A DNA stretch of 64,000 nucleotides from Octopus vulgaris (taxonomy: Eukaryota), in assembly GCA_951406725.2 (NCBI GenBank), contig OX597822.1, positions 85,932,001 to 85,996,000 on the forward strand, written 5' to 3'. The notes under the pieces are model-generated. The model was given only the letters and a program-made list of their open reading frames with translations. It ran no database searches and was not told the DNA's origin. Shown piece by piece: positions 3,616-64,000 of this stretch (positions within the stretch are counted from its first letter, which is position 1; the number at the start of each line of letters is the position of its first letter). The translations under genes were made by a program, and so were the position numbers.

Positions 3616-6600
3616 CTGCAGGAAGGAAAACAAAAACATCATGGTTAGTTGTTTTAGTTTCAGGACAAGAAAAATAAAGTGACAGGGCAAGAGTTACGGC
3701 TCAGGCGAAAATGAGCAGATCAATGATCCAAGCTATTCCAGCAGAGACTGTCTTGCCTTTTTGTTTTGCAATCAAATACTAATAAGAACCTCATAATCCA
3801 ATGTGTCCTTCCTTTTTGTAAAATGGTGAAGGGGAAGACATTATATTCTTTATTTAACAATTATTAAGTTAGCATTAACATAGTTAACATAATCAGCATA
3901 AAAGAAAAAGAAACTAATTAGAAATAATTATGCGAAGAGGAAAAGACAACAACATTAGCTCAGTAATTAATATAGTTTAAGTGGCTCAACAAGTAAGGGA
4001 GACAACATTGGATATGTTTCAGTCATATGAGACTTCTTCAGTGAAGCTTAGACCTGACTGTACTTGTAGAAATAAAGATGAAATAATCACTACAGAGATC
4101 AATATTAGATCTCTGTAGATCTGTACAACATTGTACATGGAGAGGTGGCATAGAATATTTGCATATTTAGATAAATCATTGATGGAAAGTACTCAAAGAT
4201 TTTATTGCTTCATGTGGTGTGTGTGAGAGAGAGAGAGAGGACAGAGAGGAGATGTTCAATAAATAATGCTGACATAACAATCGAATTCTTATTTCTTTCA
4301 TATTATTCACATCTGGTCAGTTCTACCAGTTTCAAATAAACCAGCAATATTTCTAATTGTTGTTTTACTTCCAGGCTAACTCTGATTGAAAAACTCAGAA
4401 ATCAAAGACATTCCAATCATGACAACCCCATCTTTAAGAACATCTATGATTACTAAGATCACACTATCCAAGAATCTTTCCTTTCTTAAGTTGGTAGGGC
4501 TTGATTTGAGGGAGATTTGGCTACTATTTCCAGCAGGTCATACAGGCTCTATCATTGGCTCATATATTTTAGTTCTCTCTGCAAAAATTGGTTTATTTTT
4601 TTATGATTTAAGGCAAAAGATGAGGTTAGATCTTGATGCTGGAGTTGATCTGCTTTTTGATATTTTCATTAAATGATAAAAAATATTAACCCAATAAAAG
4701 GTGTTTGTTTTTTTAAATCTACCAAAATTCATCCAATTCAAGATATCAGCATTAAGATCAACAATGATCTGACAAGAGTTGAAATTATTTCTTTAGTTTA
4801 AGAGAGAAATGAGGATGCTAATACAGAACGATCATGCCACCCCACCCATTCTCTTATCAAACATCAGCTAAAATACAAAATCATTTCCTTATCTGACCAC
4901 CACCTTCCATATAACTTAATAAATACAACTCAAATAACTCAAAATCAACTTCTTATTCCCCCACCACCACCACCACAACCCCATCTCCATGAGACTTCCA
5001 TATTTGGACAAGGTGGAGAGATTTCTTAAAGTCAGACACGATCTTTTTTCAAGCAATTACATTGAAATGACCGATGATCTTTCTGTATTAACATCCTCGT
5101 TTCTTTCTTAAACTGAACAAATAATTTCAACTCTTGTCAGACCATTGTTGATCTTAATGGATGAATTTTGGTAGATTTAAAAAAACAAACAACTTTTATT
5201 TGGGTTAATTTTTCTTATCATTTAATGAAAATATCAAAAAGCACATCAACTCCAGCATCAAGATCTAACCTCATCTTTTGCCTTAAATCAAAAAAGTAAA
5301 ACAGTGTCAGCCAACCTAGTTACTCGAAGATTAATACAGTCCCAGGCTGTACTATATCCTGGACAGGCATAGTCCAATTCTACAAATCAAATGGAAATTG
5401 TAGTTGTGATACTCGTGCCAGTAGCATGTTAAAAGCACCATCCGAACATGACCGATGCCAGCGCCGCCTTGACTGGTGCCCATGCCGGTGGCATGTAAAA
5501 AGCACCAACCGATCGTGGCTATTGCCAGGATCCTCTGGCCCCTGTGCCGGTGGCACGAAAAAGCACCCACTACACTCACGGAGTGGTAGGTGTTAGGAAG
5601 GACATCCAGCTGTAGAAACACTGCCAGATCAGTTTGGAGCCTGGTGCAGCTTCCTGGCTTCCCAGACCCCAGTCAAACCATCCAACCCATGCTAGCATGG
5701 AAAATGGATGTTAAAAGATGATGATGATGACTGCAAGACAATATGGTCACAGGTCGATCTTTTGACAGTTTGCACTGTTGAACTCCTTATGAGAGAGAGA
5801 GAAAGAGATGTCTGTCGTCAGCTGTTTTTGTCTTTTAAAATCTGGAACAAGCCCTAAAAAGTTACAGTACCTACCAGAAACAACTATTTTAAAAAAAAAA
5901 AAATATTAAAATAAATAAAAGAAAAACAGACATCAATTGCGAATGCAAAAAGCCTGAAAGAGAGAATGGAATTGGTAATAAAGTTGACTCACCTCAGTTC
6001 TTCATCTTCCTCACCATGTTTGTCAAGATAGACTGATCCCCAAAGTGCTGCTCTCTGGCCACGGATCACAACTACTATGCTTGAGTTTACCAACAGAAAC
6101 ACACCCGTTCCAGCCCCACAAGTTATTGAATGCTAGACAGGAAAAAGAAATTGAAATAACAAATCCCACTTTACACAACAACAGGCATCACATTTGGCAA
6201 ATATTATTAAATTTTGTTTTTATTCTATGGTTGGATTCTCAAAAGGTACACTCGTTTAACAGCAGGGAAAATGCTAGAATTTGGACATAGCTCTTTCACT
6301 ACTTTGAGGTCATAAAATTCGAGCAAGTCTCCAGGTTCAATCACTGGTTAAGCCATCCTATTTTATTTATTTCTAATAGTAACACTATTAGAAATAAGAA
6401 AAGTATTTTTGGCTGTGATTTACTAATCTAGACAAGACTAGGTTCCACTCAGCTGATTTTGTCAATTATATACAACAAGTGAACAACTCGAGTGGCTGAC
6501 TCAATTAGACTCAAGGGAAATTTTCATTTGAGTCAAAGCAGTTGACTCAACTTGGTTTACAGACAATTGCTTTCTAGCAGAAACTGGCATCCAACCAGAA

Positions 6601-9600
6601 GAAAACATTGGATCTTCTGCTTGAAGATGAAGCAGAATCAAAAAAAGATCTACATGAAAATATCTTTAATCTTCTTCAACTTATCAATTACAAAGCTAGG
6701 GTTGAACAGTTTTACAAATTTCTATATTTGAACATGAATTCATGAAATAAATATTCTCATATTTATTTGTTACATTAAAACCATGATGGTATGATTTCAT
6801 CCCATGGTTGAGTTGACAACAGTAGCAGCTGCAACTTTTATGCAACACTGGTAAAATTTCAGTTTTTGAATTTGTTTTTTATTTTGTTGAAGATGTGGGA
6901 AACCACTCGGTATATTTGATACAACAGTCACGACTAAAGCCTTTTCTACCATCCCTCACAGCACCAAAGACAAGTCACTCTATTACAGAAGAGAGCAATG
7001 TTAAGTTTTAGCAGTCAGTATGCAGATATTGTTATGCACACAGAACGTATGATTATTAATTACAATAATGATTAAACTTTTGTGCAGTAATTGCAATCTA
7101 TATGTGCATTCAGAGAGCTTAGAGTTAGCATATGAAATAGTTTCCCAAGAATTCACCATCATCATCATCCATTTTCCAAGCTTGCATGGTTTGGATGATT
7201 TGACAGGAGCTGTACCAAGTTCCACAGTTTGGCTTAGTTTCTATGGCTGGATGCCCTTCCTAACGCCAACCACTTTACAGGGTGTGGACTGGGTGCTTTT
7301 TATGTGGCACCAGCAGAATTGACTGTCCATATTTACAGATTGACACTATAGACAAGTGTATATTATACAAGAATAAATGCACCATATTATATTTTACAGC
7401 TGAATATCTTTACACATAAGACAACAATCTGGGACAAATTACACTACAGAAAACTAACATCTTCTCCAACATAAGATTCCTCTTTTAACTACTTTATGCT
7501 ACAAACTATGTCCACAAGTTTCATAAAAAATTTAACAGAACTTCACAAATAAAACAAGTGCAATAAACTTCAAGTAGACAGTGCTTACCTGTACACATTC
7601 TCGAACTGATTCATGTTCACAGCAAGCTTCTCGGAAGCAGAGAAACTCTGCACATATTAAACATATCGTTGGATCTCGAGGAATTTTGTTACAAATCATA
7701 CAGGTTTTGTTGCGGTACTCCTGGAATATTTTGTAGTATTGATCAGGAAGTTCCACAAGCCTTGGTGGATGGAAAAAAAAACTTGAAGGAAGTAAATACT
7801 GAAAAAGAAAATCAAATAAAATAACCGCATTAGTAAGAAAACACACAGACATACACATGGCTTGTGATTTAATATACAAAAGGCAATGATTACATTCTGT
7901 AAAAGTTCCTGATCTCAAGTATAGAAGGTTGGTGCTTTTCTTTGATCTTTCAGGCAAATATTTGACATTATCATACAGGGTAGCCATGTTTGGAACCTGA
8001 ACAACTGGCAAATCATGCACTGCCTAAGCTTTCAATTTACTGCAAAATCTGAGCATGAAACTTGAAGTAACTCATATAATTCACATATTCATTAAATCAC
8101 ACACACACACACACACATATCCAGATTTTACAGTTTTATATTTGAGAGATGAAGAATTATGTACATCATTTACATTTGACAGATATTTGTCTTCATCTTG
8201 TTAAAACAACGTTTTGGCTGATATACTTTCCCACAGGCATATGGTGTAGAGGTTAAGAGTGCAGGCTACTAACCCCAAGATTCTGAGTTCAATTCCAGGC
8301 AGTGACCTGAATAATAATAATAATAACATCCAAAAATACCTTAGGAATGAGAACCCAGGTTCGAAATTTCCCCAGGACACCTGAAGAAGGCTGGAGAGTA
8401 TATAAGCTGAAACGCTGTGTTAACAACAAACAAGATGAGGGCAAATATCCGTCAAATGTAAATAATGTATCCAGATTTTAAATTCCATTTATATCAATAA
8501 TTGGTGCCCTTAGTATTATGAGTAAATGCCAAAGTGCCAATCTGGATAAGCTAGGGTTTTCAGAACAAAGAACTCAACCAACTGACTCTCACATTACAAA
8601 TACAATCTGTAAATGGAACAGTAAAAATGAGCAAGACTTTTCTTGAGTTTAAAATGAGACTTTGCTTTAGTTATCAACATTCCAATGATGGAGTTTTGTA
8701 TCTTTGTAAGAAACCAGCTACTTCTTCGGAGAAAGAACTTAGATAATTAAAAACAGAACACACACACACCTCGTATGACTTAATGCATCTATGTATGAGT
8801 TGAAGACATGAGTGTGATTTGAGGTGACATACTTGATTCTTGAGAGAAGGAGGTCCATCAATTGCTGTAGCTAATTCATGTAGCCAGAACCGGGTGATTG
8901 GTAAAATCTCAGGTACACAGAATTGAACAAAATGTTCAGTTCGTTGAGTTTCTTCTATTTTGCGAGGAATAGATAATCCTGATTGAGTATCAACAGATGC
9001 GCTTGGCTGGCTATCACAAGACTTTCCACCTAACATGAGGTAGTGGCAGAGGTAGGTAAATTCAGATGGATACTGAAACAGAAAAAAATATTTAAACATA
9101 ACAGCTTTTAGTACATATCATAAGATCCAAAGATTTTAGTTCCAATCACCATAAATTTTATAATTTTGGCTAATCTCAATTTCGAGTCCCTCGTCATCAG
9201 TAAATGTTCCATTCATATTCTTAAACTTGTATTTAACTCATTAACTGCCAAATTTTTGTTATTGATATTTTTTGGCTTTGCCAAGTGTCTTAGGAGTTAA
9301 AATAATATATAGTATTTAAATTTTCTTCACATGTGAATTATTTTGGAAATTATGATAAACTTTTCAAAAAGTTCCAAATAGGGATCACTGTAAAAAAACA
9401 TATTTCTCCTTTTCTATTCAATTAAAATAATAAACATTTTAATTTTTTTCAAACTATAGTATCAAGTGCGAATATGTATGAAATATCACGGAATGATATA
9501 AATGAGAAATGCCAAAAAAAAAAAAAGTTTTCAAAACAGTCAATATTTTTGTAGTTCAAAAATTGCAATTTATGACATAAAATGTCCTTTAGAATTAGCC

Positions 9601-12600
9601 AGAGATAATAATGACAAACTTTAAACTACTAAATATTGTTAAACACACTTCTGCAAACGCTATGTACATAAGCAATTCACTTTAAATAAAAACGACCAAC
9701 TGGCAGTGAGACGGTTTTTAGCAGATCCTCAAATGGGGCTCATGGATACATACAAATATATAAGTGTATACATAATCACCACTCTCAGTTAACATCCACT
9801 TTCCATGCTGGCATGGATTGGACAGTTCAACAGGAGCTCTGCTACACAGAACAATGTGCCAAGCTCTAATGTCCGCTTTGGCATAGTTTCTATGGTTGGA
9901 TGACCTTCCTAATGCCAACCACTTTACAGAGTGAACTGGGTGGTTCTCTGTAGAACCAGCAGCATCCAACAAATAATTTGTAAGACCACTCAAATGAGGA
10001 GGGAGCAGTTGTGAAGGAGGTGGTTTAGTGCCAGGAGATGAGTTAGAGTATGAATAGAGGGATTAAAATAGGGGTCTTGTATTAAAAGAGATACATGGCT
10101 CCCTCAATAGGAGCGAGAGATGTGAGTGGGAGGTGTGTATAATTGGAAGCAAGGATGGGAGAGGGTCAATGGGTGGAGAAAGTTCACAAGAATGCAAAAG
10201 AAGGGAAAGAAATGGGTATTAGGAGGATAAGTGTTGTGGGGAAGAGGTTCAACAGGGACATATTGTGTGAAGGTCAAGTGAGTGAGGAAGAGTTGGGGAA
10301 CCGAGTTGTCGGGGACAGATTGCGAGCATTCCTAAAAACTATACTAAAAGAAATGAAGAACTAAATGTGATGTAGACTCCCCAGGCCACACCTAAAAAAA
10401 GCAATGTCTCTGAATAAATAACCAACTGATAGAGAGAGAAAATAAAGGAAATTCTTTACATGTGGTGCCATTGGAACATCAATATGTACCCAGTCCATGC
10501 TGTAAAGTGATTAATGATAAGAAGAACATCTAATTGTGACAGAAGAAGCAACAAACATTGGTGCCTTCTTTGTTGTTATGTGTATTGGACTGTGATAAAT
10601 AGAGAGAGAAGTTAGCATCCAACTCATGGAAACAAAGCAATGATGATGATGATACACCCGAGAAGAAATTAAGCAGATTTTGCTTACAACTGAATAAAAA
10701 AAAGAGTAAAATATTTACCAAAATCTCTATCAAATACTTACCTTTTTCTGTGGGAATTCTTCATCAAATAAATGTCGCTGTAAGAGTGCAGCAATTCTTA
10801 AATAAGGAAGCAAATATGACTGTAAAACATTTTCTATACTGTCTGGACTCCAGATCCACTGCGATATCTACAAGAAAGATTGACTGACTGAACTTTACTC
10901 AAACCACAATGATAATTCAATAGGATTCAATTTATTTTCACCCATATTTCTGCTTTTAACAAGAAAACAAATTAGATCTCTTCTCTTCCTCACATTTCCA
11001 CTTCATGCATTATGCTTACCTCCCACTCCCCAATCCTTTGGCCCTGTGCCACTGTATCATTGCTTTCTGCTAGCATCTGACCTGTGTGTCCCACCCACGC
11101 CCTGCCTCATAGTATCATTGCTGTCCTCAACCCACATGGAACAAGAAAAATTTTCACTCACCCTACCCCAACAAACCCACCTACATCTCTTCTTCACATT
11201 TCCTCCTTCATACATTATGCCTACATCTTACTCCCCAAACCTGTTCTTCTGTATCATTGCTATCCGGTAGCCACCCCGGAAAGGTTTTTGCCAATCACTG
11301 CCCACCTCCGCACTCTTTAATCATGCTTCCTTTGCAATATCCTGCCATTTATATTATGGCGTTCAAACCCCAAGGGTATGCCCTGGCACTTGCAACCATC
11401 TATATCTCTCTCTTTCTTTACTCAACCATCCCATTTATATTCTGATCCCTGTCCCTTGTGAGTATGCCTGGCATTTAGCCACCATTTCTATCCTGCTGTC
11501 TCCTACCCTCTCTCTCTTTCCTTCTCCTGCACTTCCTTCAGGTTGGGTAACCATGTATTTCCTTTGTGGTGGCACATCTGTTTTTGTCTTCATTCTCTCT
11601 TCTCTCTCTCTCCAGCTGGGTACCTTGTACCTCCTCTACAGCAAGACACCTGTTTCTGTCTCTCTGCCTCACTCTAACTTTTCTTCATCTGACACAAGAT
11701 CACCTCTCCTCTCAAAAGAGTTTTTGGTTTTGCAAGATACTTGGTGACCCTGTCAGTGCAGGTGCCACTTAAAAAGCATCCAGTCCACACAGGTTGGCAT
11801 TTGGAAGGGCATCCAGCTGTAAAAACCTAACCTGTGCTTGTGCCACATAAAAAGCACTGAGTCTGCATCCAGCTGTAAAAATCCTGCCAAAACAATCACA
11901 GGAGTCGGGTGCAGGCTTCTGCCTGACTGGCTCCTGCCAAACCGTCCCACCCATGCCAGCATGGAAGGCAGATGTGAAACGATGATGATGATTCTTTTCT
12001 GCTTTCTTTTAACATCTCACAACAACACTTAACCAGATCACTCCCTCAACACCACATCGCAATTATACCACAAACAAACTTTTCTCTTGATATATATTTC
12101 AATACTTCATTTTCTCAAAAAACAGTTTCACTGAAGACTGCTCAGATATGTTAAAAACAAACAAGTTGTCAAACAGATACTTACACACCCAAGTTGCTGA
12201 TCTTTCTCATCGTACAGTTGACTGAGTTGCAGTCGTGTAATGACATGACTCATCATTCCACTGACTTCTTGCAAAGAATCCTGAAAACATTTAAATCAAC
12301 AATGAAGACAAAGAAGGATAATGTGCAGACAAGAATGAGCCAGCAAATGAGAGAGCCAGCCAATGGGGGAGCCAACCATCGGGGGAGCCAGCAAATGAGG
12401 AAACCAGCCAATGAAAGAACCAGCCAATGGGGGAGCCAGCAAATGAGGGAAAACCCAATGAAGGAGCCAGCCAATGAGGGAGAAGCAAATGAGAGAGCCA
12501 GCCAATGGGGAAGCCAGCAAATAAGAGAACCAGCTAGTGGGGGAGCCAGCAAATGAGGGAAAACCCAATGAAGGAGCCAGCCAATGAGGGAGAAGCAAAT

Positions 12601-15600
12601 GAGAGAGCCAGCCAATGGGGAAGCCAGCAAATGAAGGAACCAGTCTGTGGGGGAGCCAGCAAATGAGGGAAAACCCAATGAAGAAGCCAACAAATGGGGG
12701 AGCCAGCAAACGAGGGAGAACCCAATGAGGGAGCCAGTCTTTTTATGTCTGCTAAAAACAGCAACCAAATCTCCAAGTTACAGTTTTGAAAGGGGAAGGA
12801 TACATAGGATAAAGTAGCCCTAGATACACAGTGACCAAGAAAAAGATGGGATGGTCATGGTTGGAGGTCTCTGGTCATAAGTGTATTCAGTCAGGAATCT
12901 GGTATTAAACAACAACAAACTGAGATAGTGTTTATAAAAATGTCAAAACACTAGCAAGACTCAACAAAGTCGTTCAGATTTTCTATTTTTTGTTGTGTCC
13001 AAAGAACAGAAGAGTCATATTTACAAAAGCATTCATTTTCCTGGCATTGGTCACTGTAGTGTTCTTATCCTCCTCCTCCTCATTATCATCATTTTATGTC
13101 CACCTTTGATGTGGACAATGGTTCACTGTGGGTCCTCTTGGTCTGAGTTTATAGGGAGTTACTGATCTCCTAGAATGGTCAGAGGATGACATTTCATGGT
13201 TTCTATAGCTGGATACCCTTTCTAATAAAGAATGTATGAGCTTCCATTCATTGTGTCCCCAGGATCAGACAGGGTTGCTAAGTCTTCTACAAGACTAGAG
13301 ACTCTTCTCAATTCTATGTCTGTCACTCTCTATTTAAGGCAAACAGGACCAAAGGGGGTGGGGATAGAAAGAGAGAAACTCCATCAAAATTTCTCCAAGT
13401 ATTTTTGTAAATAAACATTATTTCTAAATTCCTCACAAACAACAGAATAACATAATGTTTATCCTGTCCACAAGTCTTAACTTTTGCAAGAGGCCTGCCT
13501 TAGCGTCATAATACTCATCCTTTTCTCAAAGATATTCAGAGATGCAGGAGAGAAGTTCAAAGCAAATTTCAATCCCCAAAAACTACTTTAACTCTTTAGC
13601 ATTTAAATTGGTCATATCTGGACCAAATATACCATTTGTTTTATGTTCAAACTGGCTAGATCCAGCCTCTCACACCTAACCTACAATGTCATTCTAAAAA
13701 TTGACAATCACATCATTGAATCTCCTCCAACCAGAAGCTTGTCCCAAATGTCTGCAACAGAATGAATTCTGTTAAAGGCAGCCCAGTGGGTGGGGGTTTA
13801 AACACAGGCAACAGGTTCAGTCTACTTTGTGGCCATGGTGGGATTTAGACTCAGAACAGAGTTGGAACAAATACCATGAGGTAGTAAGTCCCATGTTTTT
13901 ACAGTTTCACTAATCCACCATCTTGGATTGGTACCTTTTTTTTTTTTTATTGACCTCTGAAAGGATGAAAGACAAAATGGACCTCGGCAGGAATTGAACA
14001 CTAAGTGGAGAAATTTGGAATGAAAACTGTGAAGCATTCAATTGCTCGAACAATTTTGCCAAATTCACCAATTAACTCTTTGACATTCAGGTTATTCTGT
14101 CAAATGGAATAATTATTTATTCAAATTTTTTAAAAATCCATCTTGTATTATCATGTAGCTTTGAGATTTCAAAGACATCATCATCATTTAATGTCCGTTG
14201 TCCATGCTGGCATGGGTTGGACGGTTTGACCAGGGTTGGTAAGCTGAGGGGCTGCACCAGACTCCAGTTTGATTTGGCATGGTTTCTACAGTTGGATGCC
14301 CTTCCTAATGCTAACCACTCCAAGAGTGTAATGGGTGCTTTTACATGCCACCAACACAGGTGCCATTTGCATGTCACCAGTATCTGCCACGACTGTGACT
14401 TCACTTGGCTTGATGGGTCTTCTTCTCAAGCAAGACATAATGCCAAAGGTCTCAATCATTGCCTCTGTGAGGCCCAATACTTGAAAGGAGCTCAACCACT
14501 TTGTCTCCAAGAGGCTCAACCCTCAAAAGGTGCTTTTTACATGCCACTGGCACAGGTGCCAGTTACGTGACACCAGCATCAGCCACAACTGCAATTTCAC
14601 TTAGCCTGACGAGTCTTCTCAAGTACAACACATCACCAAAGGTCTCGGTTACTAATCATTGCCTCTGTGAGGCCCAAACTTCAGAGATCATGCTTCACCA
14701 CCTTGTCCCATGTTTGCCTGAGTCTACTTCTAACACAAGTTCCCTCCACAGTTAGGGAGGATCAGCACTTTTTTACTCAGCTGTCCTCATCCATATGCAT
14801 CACATGGCCATACTAGTGCATTTGTGTCTCTTGCACACCACATCTGATGCCTCTTATGCCTAACTTTTCTCTGAAGATGCTTACACCCTGTTAAACATGC
14901 ACACCAACATTGCATATGCAGTGATGCATACACTGCACATCCAGCGATGCTTCATTTCTTTCAAGCCTGCACATGTCCTTGGTCGTCACAGCCCATGTTT
15001 CACTACCATGTAACATACCTGTTCGCACACAGGCATCATACAATCTGCCTTTTACTCTGAGAGAGAGGCCCTTTGTTGCCAGCAGAGGCAGGAGCTTTCT
15101 AAACTTTGTCCAGCCTATTCTTATTCTGACAACTATGCTCTTGCAGCGTCCACCTCTGCTACTAACTTGATCACCTAGGTAACAGAAGCTATCTACTACC
15201 TCTAGCTTACCCCCCATGGCAGTTGATGGAGTCTATTTTCTGTACATTTTAACAACATTGCAGGGTAGGTGTGAGGGGCTGGATCTGGTCAGTTTGAACG
15301 TCAAATAGAATATTTGGGCTGCATCTGGTCAATTTAAATGCCAAGGGTTTACCAGGACAATGTGAGTAAACAAACCAAAAGAGAGAACTGAGTTGAGAAT
15401 GGTGTGAGTGAATACTTACACTCATGCGTTTTTTACACCAAGCTACTCTTTCATTAGAAGTCAACTTCAGGCTGGTCACCACCATCGCTTGGATATAGGC
15501 CATGTTATACAGAGAGTTCACCACATAACTGAAATGCTCTGCAAATGAAACAAAAGATTCTGCATTAACAAGGAAATTCTAGAAAAAGCTTAAAAATCAA

Positions 15601-42600: not shown

Positions 42601-43660
42601 GACATTCACAAAATTTTTGCTGTTTTAAATAATTTTCTGTGAGTAGACCATCAACAACACTTAACATCCATTTTCCAAGCTGGCATGGGTTGGATAGCTC
42701 AATAGGAACTTGTAAATCCAGTTCCAGAGTCTGTTGTGATATGGCTTCTACAGCTGGATGCCCATCCTAACACCAATCACTTTATAGAGTGTGCTGGGTG
42801 CTTTTTATGTGACACCATCACCAGTTCTAATTTACATCAAATACTTCACAAAAACAAATTGTTAGGTCATTTGTTATTTTCTGGGGTAATTGGTTCACAA
42901 TAGTTTTTAAGGTTCATTAAAGTTAGAATTCTACAAAAATCAATCTGAAATGAATTGCATTCCTATTACAGATAGAATAACTTACTTCAGTAAAGTTACA
43001 TTCACAAATATTATGGACAATACTTAACAACACAAGTTCCGGTATGACTTCAAAGACAAACTTTCCATAACTACAGCCTGTTATTAAATAAACAATACAA
43101 TTGACAATTACTTTGAGCTTTAATTAAGTCAAACATTTCTGAAAGAATCATCTTAATACTCCACTCCATTTTCATAACCAGAGGTAGATGAACATTTGCT
43201 ATTATCTGTTTGGTCCTTTTTGAAATTAGGAAAACTGAAGAAGTCTGGTTAATAATCAACTTGATCAGTTGGAGTTAATGGTTGCAAGAAAATTTGCAAG
43301 TAAAAGAATTTCCAGACAAATGCTCTTGAAGGAATGAAGAACTGAAAAACCTTGTAGTAGTAAATGTTCGAGGCGAGACATGCTGAAGGTTTAGTTAAGA
43401 TGAGAGACAGATGAGTTGAGTAAGCTTAGATGGATTGGGATTGAGTTTATGTGTTGCAAAGAACAGAAAATGACTGTTGTAAGCAGCAAATAAGACAAAG
43501 ACAAGGCATGGCCTGACAGGCGACAAGAAAGTCCAGACTAGCAATGAGTAAATGGTTGCCATTGTGTTAAATGGTCTTCTCTTCAAACACACACACAATG
43601 TGCATATATATTTTTTTTATATGTTTCAGCCCTAAGGTTATGGCCATGCTGGCGCACCAT

Positions 43661-43703
<43 letters not shown>

Positions 43704-46029
43704 AAAGAACAAGGAAGTTTAGACTATCACTGAGTAAAAGGTTGCCATTGTGTTGAATGGCTTTCTCTTCAAACACACACCCAATGTGCATATATATATT
43801 ATTTTATGTTTCAGCTCTAAAGTTATGGCCATGCTGGGGCACCATGGATATATATATATATATAAAAGAACAAGGAAGTTTAGACTATCGTTGAGTAAAA
43901 GGTTGTCATTGTGTTGAATAGCTTTCTCTTCAAGCACACATACACACATTAAGCACATATAAATATATATACACACATATATACACATACCTATAAGCAA
44001 GGAAAGAGAGAGAAAGAGAGCAACCACAAATATGTGAAAACCAGATGTGTTCAATGTGTAAGCCACAGTTGAAATAAAAAAACACAAACAGAATCAGATG
44101 AACACAAACAAATCAAAACAACACAAAATACATTTTGAAAATTAGATTTCAGAAAAGGGGATATAAACAGACAACAGAGCATCTCACAAATAATGTCAAT
44201 TCTACAGAAATACATTTAATTAACTGGGAAAAGAGAAAACGTTTATGAGCCTCACCTTGTCGCCTTTATTTGCATCAAAATTAATCGACTCAAACCAATC
44301 TTCAAGAGTTTCCAGACAAGCAGCGACTATTGCTTTTGTACAATGGGCAGTTTTCTATAAGAAAACAAAGTTTATGGTATAATTAATTGATAATTGTAAA
44401 GTATAATTAATTGGTAATTATAAAGTTTATTGCTCACCATAACAGAGCTGTAATGTATTGTTACAAATTATTGTACAAAACAAAAAAATTATTGAAACAA
44501 AACAAATAATAATATTCTTGGTGAATTCATGAGTAAAACAAGGAAGTTTACAAGACTATTTAGTATTTAGCAATTAATAGAATAAATAGGAAACCATATG
44601 TAAAAGATAAATCCATAATGTTAGAATTTTGACATTTTTTGAATTAGGTTTATATATCTCAGGAAGAGGTTGAGGGCGAAACTGTTTTTAAGAAAAAAAG
44701 CAGAAACATGACCTGCAACCAATAGGATGAAGGAAGGCATGTAGAATTTAGTGTCCAACCAAATATACCATGGATATGAATGCCCAATGCAAGAGATGCA
44801 AATTTAATATCCTTTTCTTCTCATCTATTTCCTCCCTACCCAAAACAGAATCCTTTCTTTCTATTTCACAGACATACTTGATCCATTAGGTTATCATTTG
44901 TTCCTGGTTTCTATGAATATAGCTAGAATTACAGTTCTATATTTAAGAGATGAGGAATTATGTACATTATTTACATTTTACGGATATTTGTTCTTATCTT
45001 GTTTGCTGCTAACACATTTTGGCTGATATACCCTCCAGCCCTCATCAGGTGTCTTGGGGAAATTTCAAACCTGGGTTCTCATTCCTAATAGATTATTATA
45101 TGCCCACGGGCATATGGTGTAGTGGTTAAGAGCATGGGCTACTAACCCTGAGATTCTGAGTTTGATTCTAGGCAGTGACCTAAATAATAATAATAACATC
45201 GAAAAATACCTTAGGAATGAGAACCCAGGTTCAAAATTTCCTCAAGATATATATCAGCTGAAACGTTGTGTTAACAACAAACAAGATGAGGACAAATATC
45301 CGTCAAATGTAAATAATATAGCTAGAAATATTGCATCATGCTTTGGTTGAGACAAAACTTCCTAGCCAAATTGCAGGGTGAAAACAAAACAAAAAAAAAT
45401 TAAAGTTATGATTTTAAGAAACCTGTCCATGTGACAAAGAAGTTTGCTTCCTAACAGAAATCAACAAGAAGTGTTATAAATTTCATTTAGAGAAACAAAT
45501 GTTTAACAGAAAATGCAACAAAGTGAAACCAAACTGAAATACTTACACTGTCCTTACAATGAGAGATCAAATACGACATTGGAGATGCCGAGATTTCAAG
45601 TTCAGCAGAAAAAGCAGCATAATACGTGTCTGGCTCAAATTCAACATGCTGAGTAAGTTCTCGTTCATTTAAATTACAACCTGAGAGAAAAAATTAGAAA
45701 GCAAAATAACAGTATTGGAATGGTAACTACTTATTCGCTTGTATCAAAGAAGTAAATTGATATAACTCCAAGAATGTATCTTAAAAGTTGCACTATGAAT
45801 CATTTGATATCAAAAATGCATTTTTAATACAATTGAAAAAATCATTACTTTGTATACACCACTGTAACTTTTATACTGGAGTGGTTGGCATTAGGAAGGG
45901 CATCCAGCTGTAGAAACCATGCCAAATCAGACTAGAACCTGGAGCAAGCTCATCAGCTCCAGTCAAACCATCTAACCCATGCCAGCATGCAGAGCAGATG
46001 TTAAATGATGATGATGGTGGTGGTGGTGG

Positions 46030-46062
<33 letters not shown>

Positions 46063-49000
46063 GATAGAGAATGTTCTAATTATAAGAAAGAAAAAACTTT
46101 TGCACACATCACTCACTGGATAAATATAGAAGATGTGCAATTAGCTTTAGTCTCATTTTTGTTAAGTCAATCAACAGATTAATTATAAACCATCTCTACT
46201 TTCATTAAACAAGATCTCTCCCCAACACTCTATTAGTAAAAAATACTAACACACACACACAAATCACATAGCACAAGAAAATAGTTTACCTTGGAAATAA
46301 ACAAGCAAGCAAAGCCATGTATTAACCAAGTTAACATTTTCCATAAATTGCAAGGCAATGGTATGATGAGACAACAAGTTGATCAAATCACTAACAATTG
46401 GCCAATAACAATGATCTTTCATGGCTTTAGAATCACAGTCTACGACATTATGGAAGTTCTTGAAATTGTCTGAAAGATGAAAGAAAATTTTATAATTTTA
46501 GTAAACGGGTAAAAAAGAAAAAAAGATACAAGCAGAACAATCAATTTACATTGATGGCAGTGTTTGAACGGTACTTTATTGACCATTGAAGGATGAAAGG
46601 TAAAGTGCAGTTTGATGGGATTGAACCTTTGAATGTAAAGGACCAATAACTAAATGAGGTAAAGAATTTTGTCCAAATGCAGGAATGTGCAAAAGAATAG
46701 AAATAAAATAGTTTTATGTAAAATAATAATTGTCAGACAAAAACAAGTACACTAGTATGGCTGTGTGGTGAACAAGTTGGCTTAGCAACGTGGTTTCAAG
46801 TTCAATCTAACAACACAACATCTTGAACAAGGAGTTTCTAATACAACCTTTGGTTGAACAATATCTTCTGAATGAAAAACTGTATTTGTATGTCTTCGAC
46901 TGATGCAGATCAATGAGGTTATATAAAACAGCAGGAAACTGGAAAACTGGTGACATTCTTTTCCTCTTTTTGCAAACAGTGAAGGCATGAGTCCAATTCC
47001 CAACAGTACAGTTATGTCTTTGAGTAAGACATCTCACATTGCTCCAATCCACTCTGCTGCCAAAAATGAGTTGTGTCTGTAATTCAAAAGGGGCCAGCCT
47101 TGTCACATTCTGTATCATGTTGAATCTCCCTGAGAACTATGTTAAGGGTACATGTGTCTGTGGAGTGCTCAGCCACTTGCACGTTAATTTCATGAGCAGG
47201 CTGTTTTACTGATCAGATCAACAGGAAACACTCTTCCTTGTAACTGATGCTGTGCCGGGGTTTTTACGACCAAAAAATTAGGGAATCAGGGACTGGGCAA
47301 TTAACAATCATACATAAAGGCACCAGTGTTCATAAATTACAATATGAAATAAAATAATGAAACATAACTTACTCTGTAATGTACTCTGCATGAAAACAGA
47401 TTCCACCATGTGGCGTAGACTGAAGACAAGGATGTAGAGCAGGTTGTAGTCTTTGCACATGGTCCTTGCTAACGTTTCATTGCTGAACAACTGAACACTG
47501 ATGTGGACCACACGATGTGCTACTGCATAGTGGTCTTTAGACTTGACCACAACCAATGATACTCGACTGTAGTGCTGCACAAAAGCCTTTGTAAAGGCTT
47601 GCTGTTAATGAGAGTAAAACAAGGAAAAAACATTGATAAACAGTCAGAGCACCAGAAACCCTCAGAAGAAAATACTCATAATCCTTATCATTTTGCTGTG
47701 TGATAAGAAGTGTGCTTCCCAACCACATGGTCCTGGGTTCAATCCTACTGCTGACAACTTGGGCAAGTGTCTTCTACTATAGTCCAGGGCTGATCAATAC
47801 TTTGTGAGTGGATTTGGTAGACAGAAACTGAAAGATGTCCATCATGTGTGTGCGTGTGTGTTACTGTCTCCTTATCATGACAGCTGTAAATGAGTGTCAC
47901 TGTCATACATACAGGGGAAATATTACTTTGCTAAGAAACAAGCGAGAGTTGGCAACAGAAAGGGCACCCAACTATGGAAAATCTGCCTCAAATTCCATCC
48001 ACTCCATGCTCACAGCTGAGAAGTCATAGATTGTCATAAGCAAGTGAGCAAAATATTGAAGGCCATTTTAGAACTGAAGCAGATAAATGGTAGCAAAGGG
48101 TTGTTGGGGAGGCAAAAGTGGTGGAAGGCTTTGTAATGGTGGTTGTTGTATTGAGGTGAACCAGCAGCGATGGACAAAGCACCATCCAAACATGGCCGAT
48201 GCCAGTACCCCGACTGGCCCCCATACCAGTGGCACGTAAAAAGCACTATCCGAACGTGATCTACCTTTCACTCTAAGTGAGAGACCCTTTGTCGCCAGTA
48301 GGGGTAGGAGCTTTCTAAACTTTGCCCAGGCTATTCTTATTCTAGTGGTAACACTCTCTGAGCATCCACCCCCACTACTAACTTGGTCACCTAGGTAGCA
48401 GAAACTATCAACTACTTCTAGTTTCTCCCCCAGGAGTGTAATGGAATCTGTTTTCTGAGTATCAATGGTGTCTATTGCACTTGTGCATCTGCCGCACACA
48501 AAATATATATATGTATATATGTGTGTGTGTTTGTCCTCCCACCATTGCTTGACAACCAATATTGGTGTGTTTGGAACATTTTATTGATGGGGAAGAATTT
48601 TTAAAAGCTTACCTTGTAATGATCATCTGGCAGAAGACTTAATAATAACGTAACAATCTTCTGTGGTAATTCCAACTTGACCATCCAAAAGACTAATTCA
48701 TCCAAGATTGTGGTGTGCAGTAGTTTCTGGTCTAAACAGATTTTGTCTGTATAGAATATAAAGATATGTTCATGAAGGTTATGGAATAAATAGAGAGGCA
48801 GAAAATGTCTTTAAAATGAATTCTAAATTTGGAAGAATGTTCTTTTTTGTTGTTCTCATGCCAGTAAAATAAATAATGTCATAAATGGATGGTTCCACTG
48901 ATGAGAAACTAAATCCATTGAAGAAATGAAGAATTCTTTGAAGAGTGTCAAGAAATTTCAAATCAAAAAATAAATTTAGAAAAAGAAGTAAAAAAAAAGT

Positions 49001-55000: not shown

Positions 55001-58000
55001 TTGAGGACAATAATCAGATTGAAATGTCTCCTAAGACATCCAGGACAAGATACAGTCCTTGCTGCAGCGTGTTGGTTTGTGTATGTATGTTGGTGGGGGT
55101 GTACCTCAAGGGTACACTCCCACCAACACACACACATACTGAGGAAGTGACCCTGGCAGCCCAGAGCAGAGTGGTAAGAATGTCATCGACAGTCTGTGTT
55201 CTATAGAGGACGATGAGCCTAAGTAAGTAAATATATACTTTTCTACTCTAGGCACAAGGTCCGAAATTTTGGGGGAGGGGGCCAGTCAATTAGATTGACC
55301 CCAGTATGCAACTGGTACTTAATTTATCGACCCCGAAAGGATGAAAGACAAAGCTGACCTCAGCAGAATTTGAACTCAGAACGTAAAGACAGACGAAATA
55401 CTGCTAAGCATTTTGCCTGGCGTGCTAACGTTTCTGCCAGCTCACTACCTTCAGTAAGTAAATAAGTAGTAAGATATATCACTCAACAGCTAGACCTTAA
55501 GGTTGTGGGTTCAATGTAAAAACAAACAAAGTATAGAAACACTATCTTTGCTGGCAAAGTGAAAAGCGATAATGTCTGACTACCAGAAAGTCTCTGGCAT
55601 TGTCCTACATTTTTGAATTTAAAATCCACAAGGGAAAACTAGATGCTCCTCTCTCTCCAGGTTTGATAAAATTAATGCATTAACTGGCCAAGTGCTTATT
55701 CCTAAAAATCAAATCCAAAAACATTTGTTGAGAACAAGAGAAAAATCATGAAATATTACTCACCCAGCAGGATTCATTACACTTGCATCTCCACAATCAC
55801 AAGCTCCTCCAGCCTTGCTACGGAACATGTTGTAGTCGTGTCCTTCGTGATTTCCAGCCTGAAAACACTTGGAGCAGAGTGACATGCATGGTGTTATACC
55901 ACATGTACGACACCTATAGGCCACAAAATTTGCAGTCCACACAAGGCCACATGTTGTCGCATTGTCATAAATACGCACTGGAAGAAACAAAAATAAGGAG
56001 ACTTGAAAATAGGCAGAAAATTTGACCTTTTAAGGGGGGGGAATAAATTTATTTTTCCTATCTCAATTTGGTGTTTATACAAGGATGAGTCAAAAAGTAA
56101 TGCCATTTTGTTTAGGGCAGGTGTAATTACCAACACAGGAACATGTATCATACATCAAAATGAAGCTGGTCCTCTGTGGATCACATCCCTACTTCTCAAC
56201 AGTTACTGTTTCTCTCAATAGCAATGTTCTACCTTCGAATGAAAGCATGTATCCCATAAAATTCTGATGACTGTTCTTTGAACCACTTCTTCACTACAGT
56301 TTTCACTTCCTTGTCACCAGATTTAGCACCTTCAGACTATCATCTCTTCAGCTCCGTGAAAGGGGGTTTGAGAGGCAAACATTAATCCAGTGACAATGAA
56401 GTGAAAACTGTAGTGAAGAAGTGGCTCAAAGAACAGTCATTCGAAGGCGGAACATTGTTATTGAGAGAAACGGTGACTATGTTGAGAAGTAGGGATGTGA
56501 TCCACAGAGGAACAGCTTCATTCTCATGTATGATACATGTTCCTGTGTTGGTAATTATGCCTATCCTAAACAAAATGGCATTACTTTTTGACTCACCCTC
56601 ATAATATCACTTTTGACATAATATCACTTATGTCAAAATCTTAGCTGTTCATTCTTTCAAAATTTGAACTCAGCTGAAGTAAAACTACCACTTCACTTCA
56701 TCTCTCATTAAGTATGATATCTGGTCGTGGCTACAGCTGACATACTGTTACAGTGAAAGCATACAAAAATTGCTTTCTTTGACTGTCTCCGGGGTGCTTA
56801 GAAGCTTGATTCCTAAGTACATGGTTCTGGGTTCAGTCCCACAGCATGGTTCCTTGGGCAAGTGTCCTCTACTGAGGATTTGGGTTGACCAAAGCTTTGA
56901 GTGGATTTGGTAGACAGAAACTGAAGGAAGCCCATCATGTGTGTGTGTGTGTGTTTGTCCCTCATCACTGCTTGATAACCGGTGCTGGTGTGTTTACATC
57001 CCTATAATCTAACGGTGTGGCAAAAAAGACTGACAGAATAAGTATGAGGCTTAAAAATAAAAATAAGCACTGGGATTGATTTGTTTGACTAAAATCCTTC
57101 GAGGTGGTGCCCTAGCATGGCTACAGTCTAATGACTGAAACAAGTAAAAGATACAAGCATGAAGTCTAAGAGTTTTAAAGGGTAACGGCAGTCATACCAT
57201 TTTCATGAGCAGAGTGAGATTCAGTGAAGAGAACAACTCTAAGAAGCAACTGAATCAGGCTCACAAACTCAAAATACTGGTTGGCGTATTACATTAAATA
57301 TATAGCTTCAGGATGGAACATTCACAGCAGTCTGTTCATATAGGAACACGAAATAATACTCATGCTTAAAGCCCGAACACATCACTGGAGGACAACAAAA
57401 CTAACAAAACTCATTCTCTATACTCTATAAAAGTGAACTCCAACCAATATAGCTTGGCGGGTTGAACCTGTGGCAATGAAATGCCTTTACCAAAGATACA
57501 CGGCAGTGTTAGGGAAAAGATGCCAATTAATTTTTTAATCATTAATGGAATGGATCGTTAACAACTCTTATCTTATAGTGTAATTAATACAAAGAATTAC
57601 CAGCCAGCAAAAGAACCTCAACATACTCATTCCACAGGCTAGAAATAGCAACCAAGTTTCCTTCAAATCATACCCTTTCATCTTAAAAGGAACACACAAG
57701 ATAATGTGATCATGAATACACTACACCTGAGAATATTCTTTTAAAAAAGCCCCATCAGTATTGGGGCTGACCCAGGGCTAAATAACAATATTATTATATA
57801 ATCTGCATCCTAACATCTATTTTTTTCATGCTTGCATGGTTTAGACCAATGGTTCTCAACCATTTTTAGCTGATGGACCCCTTTGGTTCTGTTTTACTTG
57901 GGTGCCCCCCCCCCCCATAACCGTTTGATGTTTTAAAAATCCAATCATATTTTTATAATCAAATATTATTAGGAATTGTATAAAAAAAATTGTTAAAATA

Positions 58001-63640: not shown

Positions 63641-63748
63641 CATGTTCTCTATGTACACAGGATCATAACTGATTTTTGGTATGGGTTTAAACAGTCAGCA
63701 TTTAAGGCTACTCAAACATAAATTTCGGCATTGTCTCAAAATCCAGGT

Positions 63749-63990
63749 CACATTCCAGAAAAGATATCAATACATCCCAGAAAAGATATCAACACATTCC
63801 AGAAAGATATCAACACATTCCAGAAAAGATATCAACACATTGCAGAAAAGATATCAACACATTCCAGAAAAGATATCAACACATTGCAGAAAAGATATCA
63901 ACACATTTCAGAAAAGATATCAATACATTCCAGAAAAGATATCGACACATTCCAGAAATGATATCAATATATTTCAGAAAAGATATTAGC
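63749..63990. repeat. 22-bp tandem repeat (ACACATTCCAGAAAAGATATCA) x ~11
   Basis: Directly visible; it explains the repetitive ORFs 63681-63989 and 63731-63961. Confidence 0.95.
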
Positions 63991-64000
63991 ACATACCTTC

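What the first reader, a model, noticed from the sequence alone, without database searches (positions are those of the whole stretch)
44916..45327. Second independent insertion confirms the tRNA-hammerhead element architecture and shows a 34-nt tail
This copy has a different 13-bp TSD (AATATAGCTAGAA) but the same order: inverted 3' piece, CCAC(A/G)GGCATATGG tRNA head, (AAT)n, body. The inverted piece is longer (~165 nt versus ~100 nt) but starts at the same point. In both copies it extends ~34 nt (CATAATTC(C/T)TCATCTC...ACTGTAA) beyond where the forward copy ends. A short tail on only one pseudo-LTR copy is a described Penelope feature, so the shared geometry points to a defined integration mechanism. 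The forward hammerhead is deleted here. The inverted one (45011-45053) lies on the UBR3 sense strand but has GAAA changed to AAAA.
Basis: partly seen in the sequence, partly recalled or inferred. Interest (0 to 1): 0.7.

Follow-up and report, generated by a model that had tools for sequence, protein, structure and literature searches.

The report
tRNA-headed Penelope parasite in octopus
This is one copy of a very abundant short octopus repeat that joins a tRNA-like front end to the hammerhead-bearing end of a Penelope-like retroelement and carries that class's insertion marks, so it is likely a SINE-type passenger of Penelope enzymes, a pairing I did not find described.

Summary
Confirmed and extended. 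Window 44916-45327 is an insertion with an exact 13-bp target duplication, a 160-nt inverted 3' arm, a short palindrome, a tRNA-like head (A and B boxes 45 nt apart), (AAT)4 and a body; a second copy at 8118-8480 has unrelated flanks. The tail is 37 nt here, 34 nt there. Contigs from three species' DNA runs show depth 10^4-10^5 times the flanks, two discrete 3' ends about 35 nt apart (402-658 contigs each) and many different head-to-head junctions. Relatives are in Octopus bimaculoides and O. sinensis protein models. The hammerhead is the minimal Penelope type and is dead in all four arms of the window. A sister family with another tRNA-like head has one tail per insertion in 18 of 19 scorable cases. 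Tail, inversion and hammerhead are known Penelope features; the tRNA head on such an element was not found in my paper searches. Best reading: a Pol III-type non-coding RNA copied by a Penelope reverse transcriptase from both nicks. The autonomous partner, Pol III transcription and an empty site are not shown; repeat libraries (Repbase, Dfam, SINEBase) could not be checked.

The parts
44916..44928 (.). left target-site duplication (13 bp)
   Evidence: exact repeat
44929..44965 (-). tail, 37 nt (34 nt at the other locus), present on the inverted arm only
   Evidence: 402-474 contigs per DNA run end at 44930 and run into unlike flank
44929..45088 (-). inverted, 5'-truncated arm (160 nt)
45011..45053 (-). 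minimal type I hammerhead, inactivated (G12 changed, 3 nt of helix III missing)
   Evidence: sequence; motif definition from PMC4209133
45089..45115 (.). head-to-head junction: 9-nt spacer and 18-nt palindrome that overlaps the first 8 nt of the head
   Evidence: like junctions in run X18 and protein model P0030
45108..45181 (+). tRNA-like head; A box 45115-45125, B box 45160-45168
   Evidence: box scan: only 2 hits in the window, the two heads, both at 45-nt spacing; shuffles mean 0.83 per window; not called by ARAGORN or Rfam
45183..45194 (+). (AAT)4 linker
   Evidence: sequence
45195..45317 (+). forward body ending without the tail; hammerhead remnant with a 19-nt deletion after 45249; predicted cut position after 45267
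   Evidence: 492-658 contigs per DNA run end at 45317
45315..45327 (.). right target-site duplication (first 3 nt shared with the element end)
8118..8480 (+). second copy: TSD 8118-8130 / 8468-8480, inverted arm 8128 to about 8230 with 34-nt tail, head 8235-8308, hammerhead 8376-8421 (core complete but C11.1 and U16.1 changed)

Best explanation
This is an old copy of a high-copy octopus non-coding retroelement of about 250 nt (tRNA-like head, AAT linker, minimal hammerhead, 34-37-nt tail) that was likely transcribed by RNA polymerase III and likely inserted in trans by the reverse transcriptase-endonuclease of a Penelope-like element. Shown: the anatomy, the target duplications, two fixed 3' ends, variable head-to-head junctions, high abundance in three species. 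Inferred steps: (1) the tRNA boxes drive transcription from a few master loci; (2) the Penelope enzyme nicks both strands 13 nt apart in AT-rich DNA; (3) each nick primes its own cDNA, one at the far start site (tailed arm) and one at the site about 35 nt inside (tail-less arm), on two RNA copies or two passes over one; (4) the cDNA that reaches the 5' end folds back for 0-10 nt (the palindrome) and the two cDNAs are joined by short microhomologies, giving head-to-head arms; (5) hammerhead cleavage is not needed, since both loci were copied through the cut site. By analogy with the lizard element, which needs RNA beyond the start sites, copies like these two would be dead ends.
For: Two loci, different 13-bp TSDs, unrelated flanks. 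Depth over the element 0.5-8.4 million against 39-146 in flank bins in runs X1, X5, X11 (not a copy number, but four to five orders of magnitude). Long loose ends pile at the tailed end (436, 402, 474 contigs of 48760, 33070, 43637 laid) and at the tail-less end (492, 548, 658), where the next letters are GTA and then random flank. Of the 12 printed rows of table 5c (318 not shown), 7 join the inverted arm to the head at 45106-45112 from 6 different breakpoints and 4 join it to a 5'-truncated forward arm. No head-end pile is among the six printed loose-end places per DNA run, which fits heads being mostly preceded by an inverted arm (weak: 1350 rows not shown). Family majority at 45250 has the intact CUGAUGA core; the motif has the unpaired base after position 9, G10.1-C11.1 and palindromic 15.2-16.2 that define Penelope minimal hammerheads (PMC4209133). 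Predicted cut to far end is 87 nt, against 85-92 nt computed from the positions given for the Anolis element (cut +26, start +111-118), whose enzyme nicks and extends both strands and is predicted to be a dimer. Sister family (39% amino-acid identity over the 44-codon hammerhead-to-tail frame): 26 of 135 mis-called proteins span an inverted arm; of the 19 scorable at both ends 18 have exactly one tail, 1 has two, none has none; it has its own A and B boxes, about 65 nt apart; in 3 of 158 stored proteins its tail runs on into a longer reading frame.
Against: No autonomous partner was found: three protein searches, one phmmer search and two viral-contig scans gave only mis-called repeat translations or nothing; six motifs of the family and its sister had no occurrence in the supplement that lists three known Octopus Penelope-like elements (line breaks can hide DNA motifs). 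That the frame behind the sister's tail is a Penelope/Poseidon N-terminus is recalled; Pfam, PDB and Atlas look-ups were blank. The head does not pass ARAGORN or Rfam. No raw RNA reads were available, so Pol III starts are untested. Contigs are too short to link the two ends of one insertion in the octopus family, so 'one tail per insertion' rests on 2 loci plus the sister family. One junction (44978 to 45110) has depth about 1430-1480 in X1 and 610-700 in X11, i.e. many copies share it, so some copies may have spread as a ready-made unit. No empty site was printed.
Confidence: 0.58

Rival explanations
1. The unit is not a separate parasite but the 5' leader (pseudo-LTR plus start of the reading frame) of an autonomous Penelope-like element that carries a tRNA-derived promoter; because reverse transcription starts inside the RNA, short leader transcripts are copied alone in huge numbers. 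The insertion chemistry is the same as in the best explanation.
For: In the sister family P0104 runs from the body through hammerhead and tail into a longer frame, and P0061 carries about 25 further codons before a tandem junction, so templates reach beyond the tail. Pseudo-LTR plus tail hold the first codons of the ORF in rotifer and fly Penelope. The octopus body-plus-tail frame is open for about 50 codons.
Against: No octopus contig pile or protein continues past the tail into an ORF among the printed rows. Two families have different tRNA-like heads (box spacing 45 against about 65 nt) on homologous 3' halves, which looks like repeated capture of a promoter, the SINE pattern. The described Penelope promoter is an internal, LINE-like Pol II-type one (PMC2377424).
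Confidence: 0.25
2. An ordinary LINE-dependent tRNA SINE that picked up a Penelope fragment and whose inversions come from L1-type twin priming.
For: 13-bp TSDs and a tRNA-like head are usual for SINEs; SINEs make up 11.6% of the O. vulgaris assembly (PMC13282606).
Against: In L1 twin priming (recalled) the inverted piece is the upstream part and does not duplicate the 3' end; here both arms hold the same 3' sequence. No poly(A) or simple-repeat 3' tail; two fixed ends 34-37 nt apart match the Penelope tail.
Confidence: 0.06
3. A retrozyme or Schistosoma-alpha-like element that self-cleaves, circularises and inserts from circular or multimeric RNA.
For: Hammerhead present; animal retrozymes are proposed non-autonomous Penelope derivatives (bioRxiv 10.64898/2026.07.22.740005); Schistosoma SINE-like repeats join a Pol III promoter and a hammerhead (PMC6765202); the sister family has direct tandems of the hammerhead-to-tail unit.
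Against: Neither window copy is a head-to-tail tandem; copies start at the head, not at the cut site; arms run through the cut site; the motif is the minimal type, not the canonical type of retrozymes.
Confidence: 0.07
4. A MITE-like DNA transposon or one segmental duplication, the inverted arms being terminal inverted repeats.
For: Inverted ends with a TSD; one junction is shared by many copies.
Against: The two ends are offset by 34-37 nt, arm lengths vary (about 46-160 nt among printed junctions and the two loci), forward arms are often 5'-truncated, flanks are unrelated.
Confidence: 0.03

Closest known systems
Insertions of endonuclease-positive Penelope-like elements (Penelope/Poseidon; D. 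virilis Penelope, A. vaga Pen2a, Anolis PAc)
   Same: Inverted 5'-truncated copy at the 5' side, 30-40-nt tail at one end (34-37 bp in D. virilis), TSD, palindrome at the inverted junction, minimal hammerhead, 87-nt cut-to-end distance.
   Different: No ORF; the forward arm is a complete 210-235-nt unit that begins with tRNA-type A and B boxes.
Non-autonomous Penelope-like elements: MRC1 and other Chlamys passengers; animal non-LTR retrozymes
   Same: Non-coding, share the 3' end or pseudo-LTR of an autonomous element (PMC8557442; preprint).
   Different: Those are described as head-to-tail tandems with no tRNA head (the word tRNA does not occur in the preprint's main text; in PMC8557442 once, for selenocysteine).
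Schistosoma Sm-alpha / Sj-alpha SINE-like repeats
   Same: Pol III promoter plus type I hammerhead in a short repeat (PMC6765202 passages; PMC8490949 passages).
   Different: Tandem arrangement, canonical active hammerhead that frees the units, promoter left at the 3' end of cleaved units; no Penelope tail or inverted arm in the passages read.
tRNA SINEs of LINEs, and TRIMp3 elements (Helenus, Ajax, Cassandra) of LTR retrotransposons
   Same: Small-RNA-derived Pol III head on a non-autonomous element whose other end mimics the partner (PMC10886601 passages).
   Different: Partner here would be the third class, Penelope-like elements; that paper's main text does not mention Penelope. The three octopus tRNA retroposons of Ohshima and Okada 1994 were seen only as a reference title and could not be compared.

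Membership tests
EN+ Penelope-like element insertion | 30-40-nt tail at one end only | tested here: met
   34 and 37 nt at the two loci; two end piles family-wide; 18 of 19 in the sister family
EN+ Penelope-like element insertion | inverted 5'-truncated copy adjoining the 5' end, variable length | tested here: met
EN+ Penelope-like element insertion | minimal type I hammerhead near the 3' end | tested here: met
   motif met when the four arms and the family majority letters are read together; no single arm in the window is intact; cleavage not testable
EN+ Penelope-like element insertion | target-site duplication | tested here: met
   13 bp at 2 of 2 loci
Autonomous Penelope-like element | ORF with reverse transcriptase and GIY-YIG endonuclease | tested here: not met
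   no such ORF in either copy
Non-autonomous Penelope-like element | 3' end shared with an autonomous partner in the same genome | tested here: inconclusive
   no partner found; sister family's tail runs into a frame recalled as Penelope-like; no host genome held
tRNA-derived SINE | 5' head with A and B boxes at tRNA spacing | tested here: met
   but ARAGORN and Rfam give no tRNA call, so the parent tRNA is unassigned
tRNA-derived SINE | short, interspersed, non-coding, high copy, TSD | tested here: met
tRNA-derived SINE | transcribed by RNA polymerase III | not testable with these tools
   only contigs were available
tRNA-derived SINE | 3' end that mimics a LINE partner and ends in poly(A) or a simple repeat | tested here: not met
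   3' end is a Penelope-type hammerhead and tail with two fixed ends
Animal non-LTR retrozyme | head-to-tail tandem units each with a hammerhead | tested here: not met
   both window copies are head-to-head; tandems elsewhere in the genome not excluded
MITE | flush terminal inverted repeats of fixed length | tested here: not met
   ends offset by 34-37 nt, arms variable

The most novel reading that the evidence does not exclude
Penelope-like elements have their own SINEs: tRNA-promoter RNAs that hijack the Penelope enzyme, born at least twice (two different tRNA-like heads on homologous hammerhead-and-tail ends), one reaching tens of thousands of copies in Octopus. Every insertion records two priming events, one at each start site, so the family is a genome-wide read-out of Penelope integration; the palindromic minimal hammerhead may serve to pair the two template RNAs rather than to cut them.
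Probability: 0.4. Interest if true: 0.8.

Novelty: new variant of a known kind. Interest (0 to 1): 0.63.

Why it matters
Pol III-headed passengers are described for LINEs (SINEs) and for LTR elements (TRIMp3); a tRNA-headed passenger of the third retroelement class would fill the empty cell and change how octopus repeats, most of whose young SINE families are unclassified (893 of 900 in PMC13282606), are annotated. How Penelope-like elements make inverted ends and the one-sided tail is still open beyond first-strand synthesis (PMC11167929, PMC8557442). Tens of thousands of short, uniform insertions give direct statistics on nick spacing, start-site choice at each nick and joining, and a 250-nt RNA is a handy substrate for the in vitro system. 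This particular copy is a dead intronic relic with no sign of function.

Tried and rejected
No whole genome held. Rfam at gathering threshold: 0 in the window; by E-value only unrelated chance rows. ARAGORN: 0 at default; the heads are not among the calls printed for -ps90, -ps85 and -ps80 (printed lists were cut at lower settings). Pattern scans: JGI metagenomes 0 and 0, viral contigs 0 (52), prokaryote genomes 1 chance hit in a Flavobacteriales gene (51, 57). Protein routes to a partner: nil; 42 and 61 gave repeat translations; P0002, P0010, P0013, P0019 are unrelated repeats. Absence of a T4 terminator inside the element is uninformative (P 0.52 in shuffles). MFE folds do not give a clean cloverleaf or hammerhead for the decayed copies. 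My first reading of the 45016 A>G row as restoring GAAA was wrong; it reflects the 3-nt deletion. A function for the inverted hammerhead in host pre-mRNA rejected: two lesions. All four arms show the C11.1-G12 CpG decayed on the same genomic strand; with n=4 I give it no weight. Runs X18-X20 had small word shares (0.07-0.10); only X18 was laid. Paper searches for a prior description (open-access library only) found none; PMC5785218 was not held; bioRxiv supplements are closed and the PAc GenBank supplement could not be read, either may bear on partner comparison.

Full report
Observation. The stretch 44916-45327 is bounded by an exact 13-bp repeat. Inside, from left to right: a 160-nt reverse-strand copy of the element's 3' part (44929-45088), a 9-nt spacer, an 18-nt palindrome (45098-45115), a 74-nt head (45108-45181), (AAT)4, and a body that ends at 45314-45317. 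A second copy at 8118-8480 has the same order, a shorter inverted arm (about 100 nt) and another 13-bp repeat; its flanks are unrelated to those of this locus and the forward arms are 86% alike. Both inverted arms begin at the same base and reach 34 nt (first locus) or 37 nt (this locus) beyond the end of the forward arm. Three of the four junctions have 2-3 nt of microhomology between target and element. Both copies lie in introns of a minus-strand UBR-family gene; the name UBR3 is recalled, not tested.

The head. ARAGORN and Rfam do not call a tRNA. A scan for an A box followed 43-48 nt later by a B box (consensus patterns recalled, one mismatch each) gave 2 hits in 64 kb on both strands, the two heads, both at the canonical 45 nt; 30 dinucleotide shuffles gave a mean of 0.83 per window, so a hit inside a given 74-nt head is unlikely by chance (about 5e-4, one independent test since the copies are related). 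I call it tRNA-like with Pol III boxes; the parent tRNA is not assigned.

The hammerhead. Read across the four arms, the body holds helix I (5 bp), CUGANGA, one unpaired base, a 5-bp helix II closed by G10.1-C11.1, GAAA, a palindromic helix III without loop, and a GUU triplet. These are the traits listed for minimal hammerheads of animal Penelope-like elements (PMC4209133, parts 1-2 of 4 read). No arm in the window is intact: 19-nt deletion in this forward arm; G12 change plus 3-nt deletion in this inverted arm; C11.1 and U16.1 changes in the first forward arm; truncation in the first inverted arm. The family majority restores the deleted core (loose-end consensus at 45250).

Family-wide evidence. 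No genome was held. Of 24 listed runs I laid 4 on 44560-45780 at 80% likeness: X1 (organism A), X5 (B), X11 (D), all DNA contigs, and X18 (insect metatranscriptome). Depth is 39-146 in flank bins (one bin 0 in X5 at a skipped repeat) and 0.5-8.4 million over the element; the tool warns that this is no copy number, but the family is clearly in the tens of thousands. Contigs that leave the element into long unlike flank pile at two places: the tailed end (436, 402, 474 contigs) and the tail-less end (492, 548, 658). Of 12 printed junction rows (318 hidden), 7 join the inverted arm to the head from six different breakpoints, 4 join it to a 5'-truncated forward arm, 1 is an internal deletion. One junction has about 30 times single-copy depth in X1, so some copies share a breakpoint.

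Host and relatives. Searching with the open frame of the body (41 codons of the first locus) returned 36 proteins. The best is a 51-residue Octopus bimaculoides record that runs through the tail; gene models of O. bimaculoides and O. sinensis begin with element-derived residues, one of them reading the head palindrome joined to the hammerhead region. So the family is octopod and the palindromic junction recurs (3 bp at the first locus, 8 bp here, about 10 bp in X18 and P0030). Most other hits belong to a sister family in unnamed ENA contigs, seen only through mis-called proteins. Its hammerhead-to-tail frame aligns end to end with ours (17 of 44 identical, E 3e-7 pairwise). Of 158 stored proteins 135 hold its forward unit and 26 of these also span an inverted arm; 7 could not be scored at the inverted end; of the other 19, 18 have exactly one tail (10 on the forward-read arm, 8 on the other) and 1 was scored as two (motif calls on translations). 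Overlapping frames fix an A box and a B box about 65 nt apart at its 5' end, with the same fold-back junction (P0123). In 3 proteins the tail runs on into a longer frame that I recognise from memory as a Penelope/Poseidon N-terminus; no tool confirmed this.

Mechanism. For the Anolis Poseidon element, purified protein nicks and extends both strands at AT-rich sites, starts reverse transcription inside the RNA at two sites whose interval is the genomic tail, needs RNA beyond those sites, does not need hammerhead cleavage, and is predicted to be a dimer (PMC11167929, parts 1-2 of 4 and supplements 1 and 3 read). The octopus insertions fit this directly: each target nick carries a cDNA primed at the element's 3' part, one from the far site and one from the inner site; predicted cut to far end is 87 nt against 85-92 nt in the lizard element. 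Because both arms contain the same 3' sequence, two templates or two passes are required, unlike L1 twin priming (recalled). Fold-back of a finished cDNA explains the palindrome, as proposed for rotifer Penelope junctions (PMC3846280 passages). Steps after priming are inferred. Forward arms without a tail, and perhaps all copies lacking sequence beyond the tail, could not serve as templates, which points to few master loci.

Comparison. Non-autonomous Penelope passengers are known (MRC1; retrozymes, bioRxiv 10.64898/2026.07.22.740005 parts 1-2 of 5 and passages; PMC7229834 passages), and Schistosoma alpha repeats join Pol III boxes to a hammerhead. What I did not find, in ten searches of the open-access library and in passages of three cephalopod repeat papers, is a tRNA-headed interspersed element that inserts with Penelope geometry. 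It works like a SINE of a Penelope element; it is not a member of LINE-dependent SINEs (3' end test not met) nor an autonomous Penelope element (no ORF). The family may already sit in Repbase or Dfam under some label, or be one of the three octopus tRNA retroposons of 1994 (title seen only); I could not check. Earlier scan notes (unchecked) report headless Penelope end-pieces, a one-off SINE-Penelope join, and one other tRNA-like unit with Penelope-type ends in another animal.

Verdict. Real feature, observation confirmed with small corrections. Mobilisation by Penelope-type machinery about 0.85; as a separate SINE-like passenger 0.58, as the leader of an autonomous element with a tRNA-derived promoter 0.25. 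Interest 0.63; new variant of a known kind, with a 0.4 chance of being an undescribed category worth 0.8.

Noticed in passing
runs X18, X19, X20; X18 laid on window 44560-45780: Three insect or termite-gut metatranscriptomes from two studies share words with the element; in X18, 85 contigs cover head, body and a palindromic junction at 80-100% likeness with no flank cover. Cross-contamination or horizontal transfer; unresolved.
   Followed up: partly
proteins P0003-P0158 (ENA contigs, host unnamed): A sister family with a different tRNA-like head, homologous hammerhead and tail, head-to-head arms, direct tandems of a 43-codon unit, and in three cases a continuation into a longer reading frame.
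   Followed up: partly
P0030 and P0066: Gene models of O. bimaculoides (dystrobrevin beta isoform) and O. sinensis (uncharacterised receptor-like protein isoform) start with residues read from this element: predicted exonisation, or annotation artefact.
   Followed up: no
window 4599-4717 and 5177-5295: Inverted arms of 119 nt, 90% complementary, 459 nt apart, with further inner inverted segments; looks like a MITE-type element.
   Followed up: no
window 56071-56201 and 56480-56610: Inverted arms of 131 nt, 90% complementary, around a decayed stretch that by recall resembles a mariner transposase fragment.
   Followed up: no
window 14891-15232 and 48068-48580, minus strand: Two fragments of a LINE reverse-transcriptase C-terminal region (RTE-like by recall) in open frames.
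   Followed up: no
window 12337-12761 and 63716-64000: Minisatellites: a composite 16/110-nt array and a 22-nt array.
   Followed up: no
window 43560-44000: Short tandem duplication of about 170-190 nt with a (TA)n tract in each copy (translations repeat).
   Followed up: no
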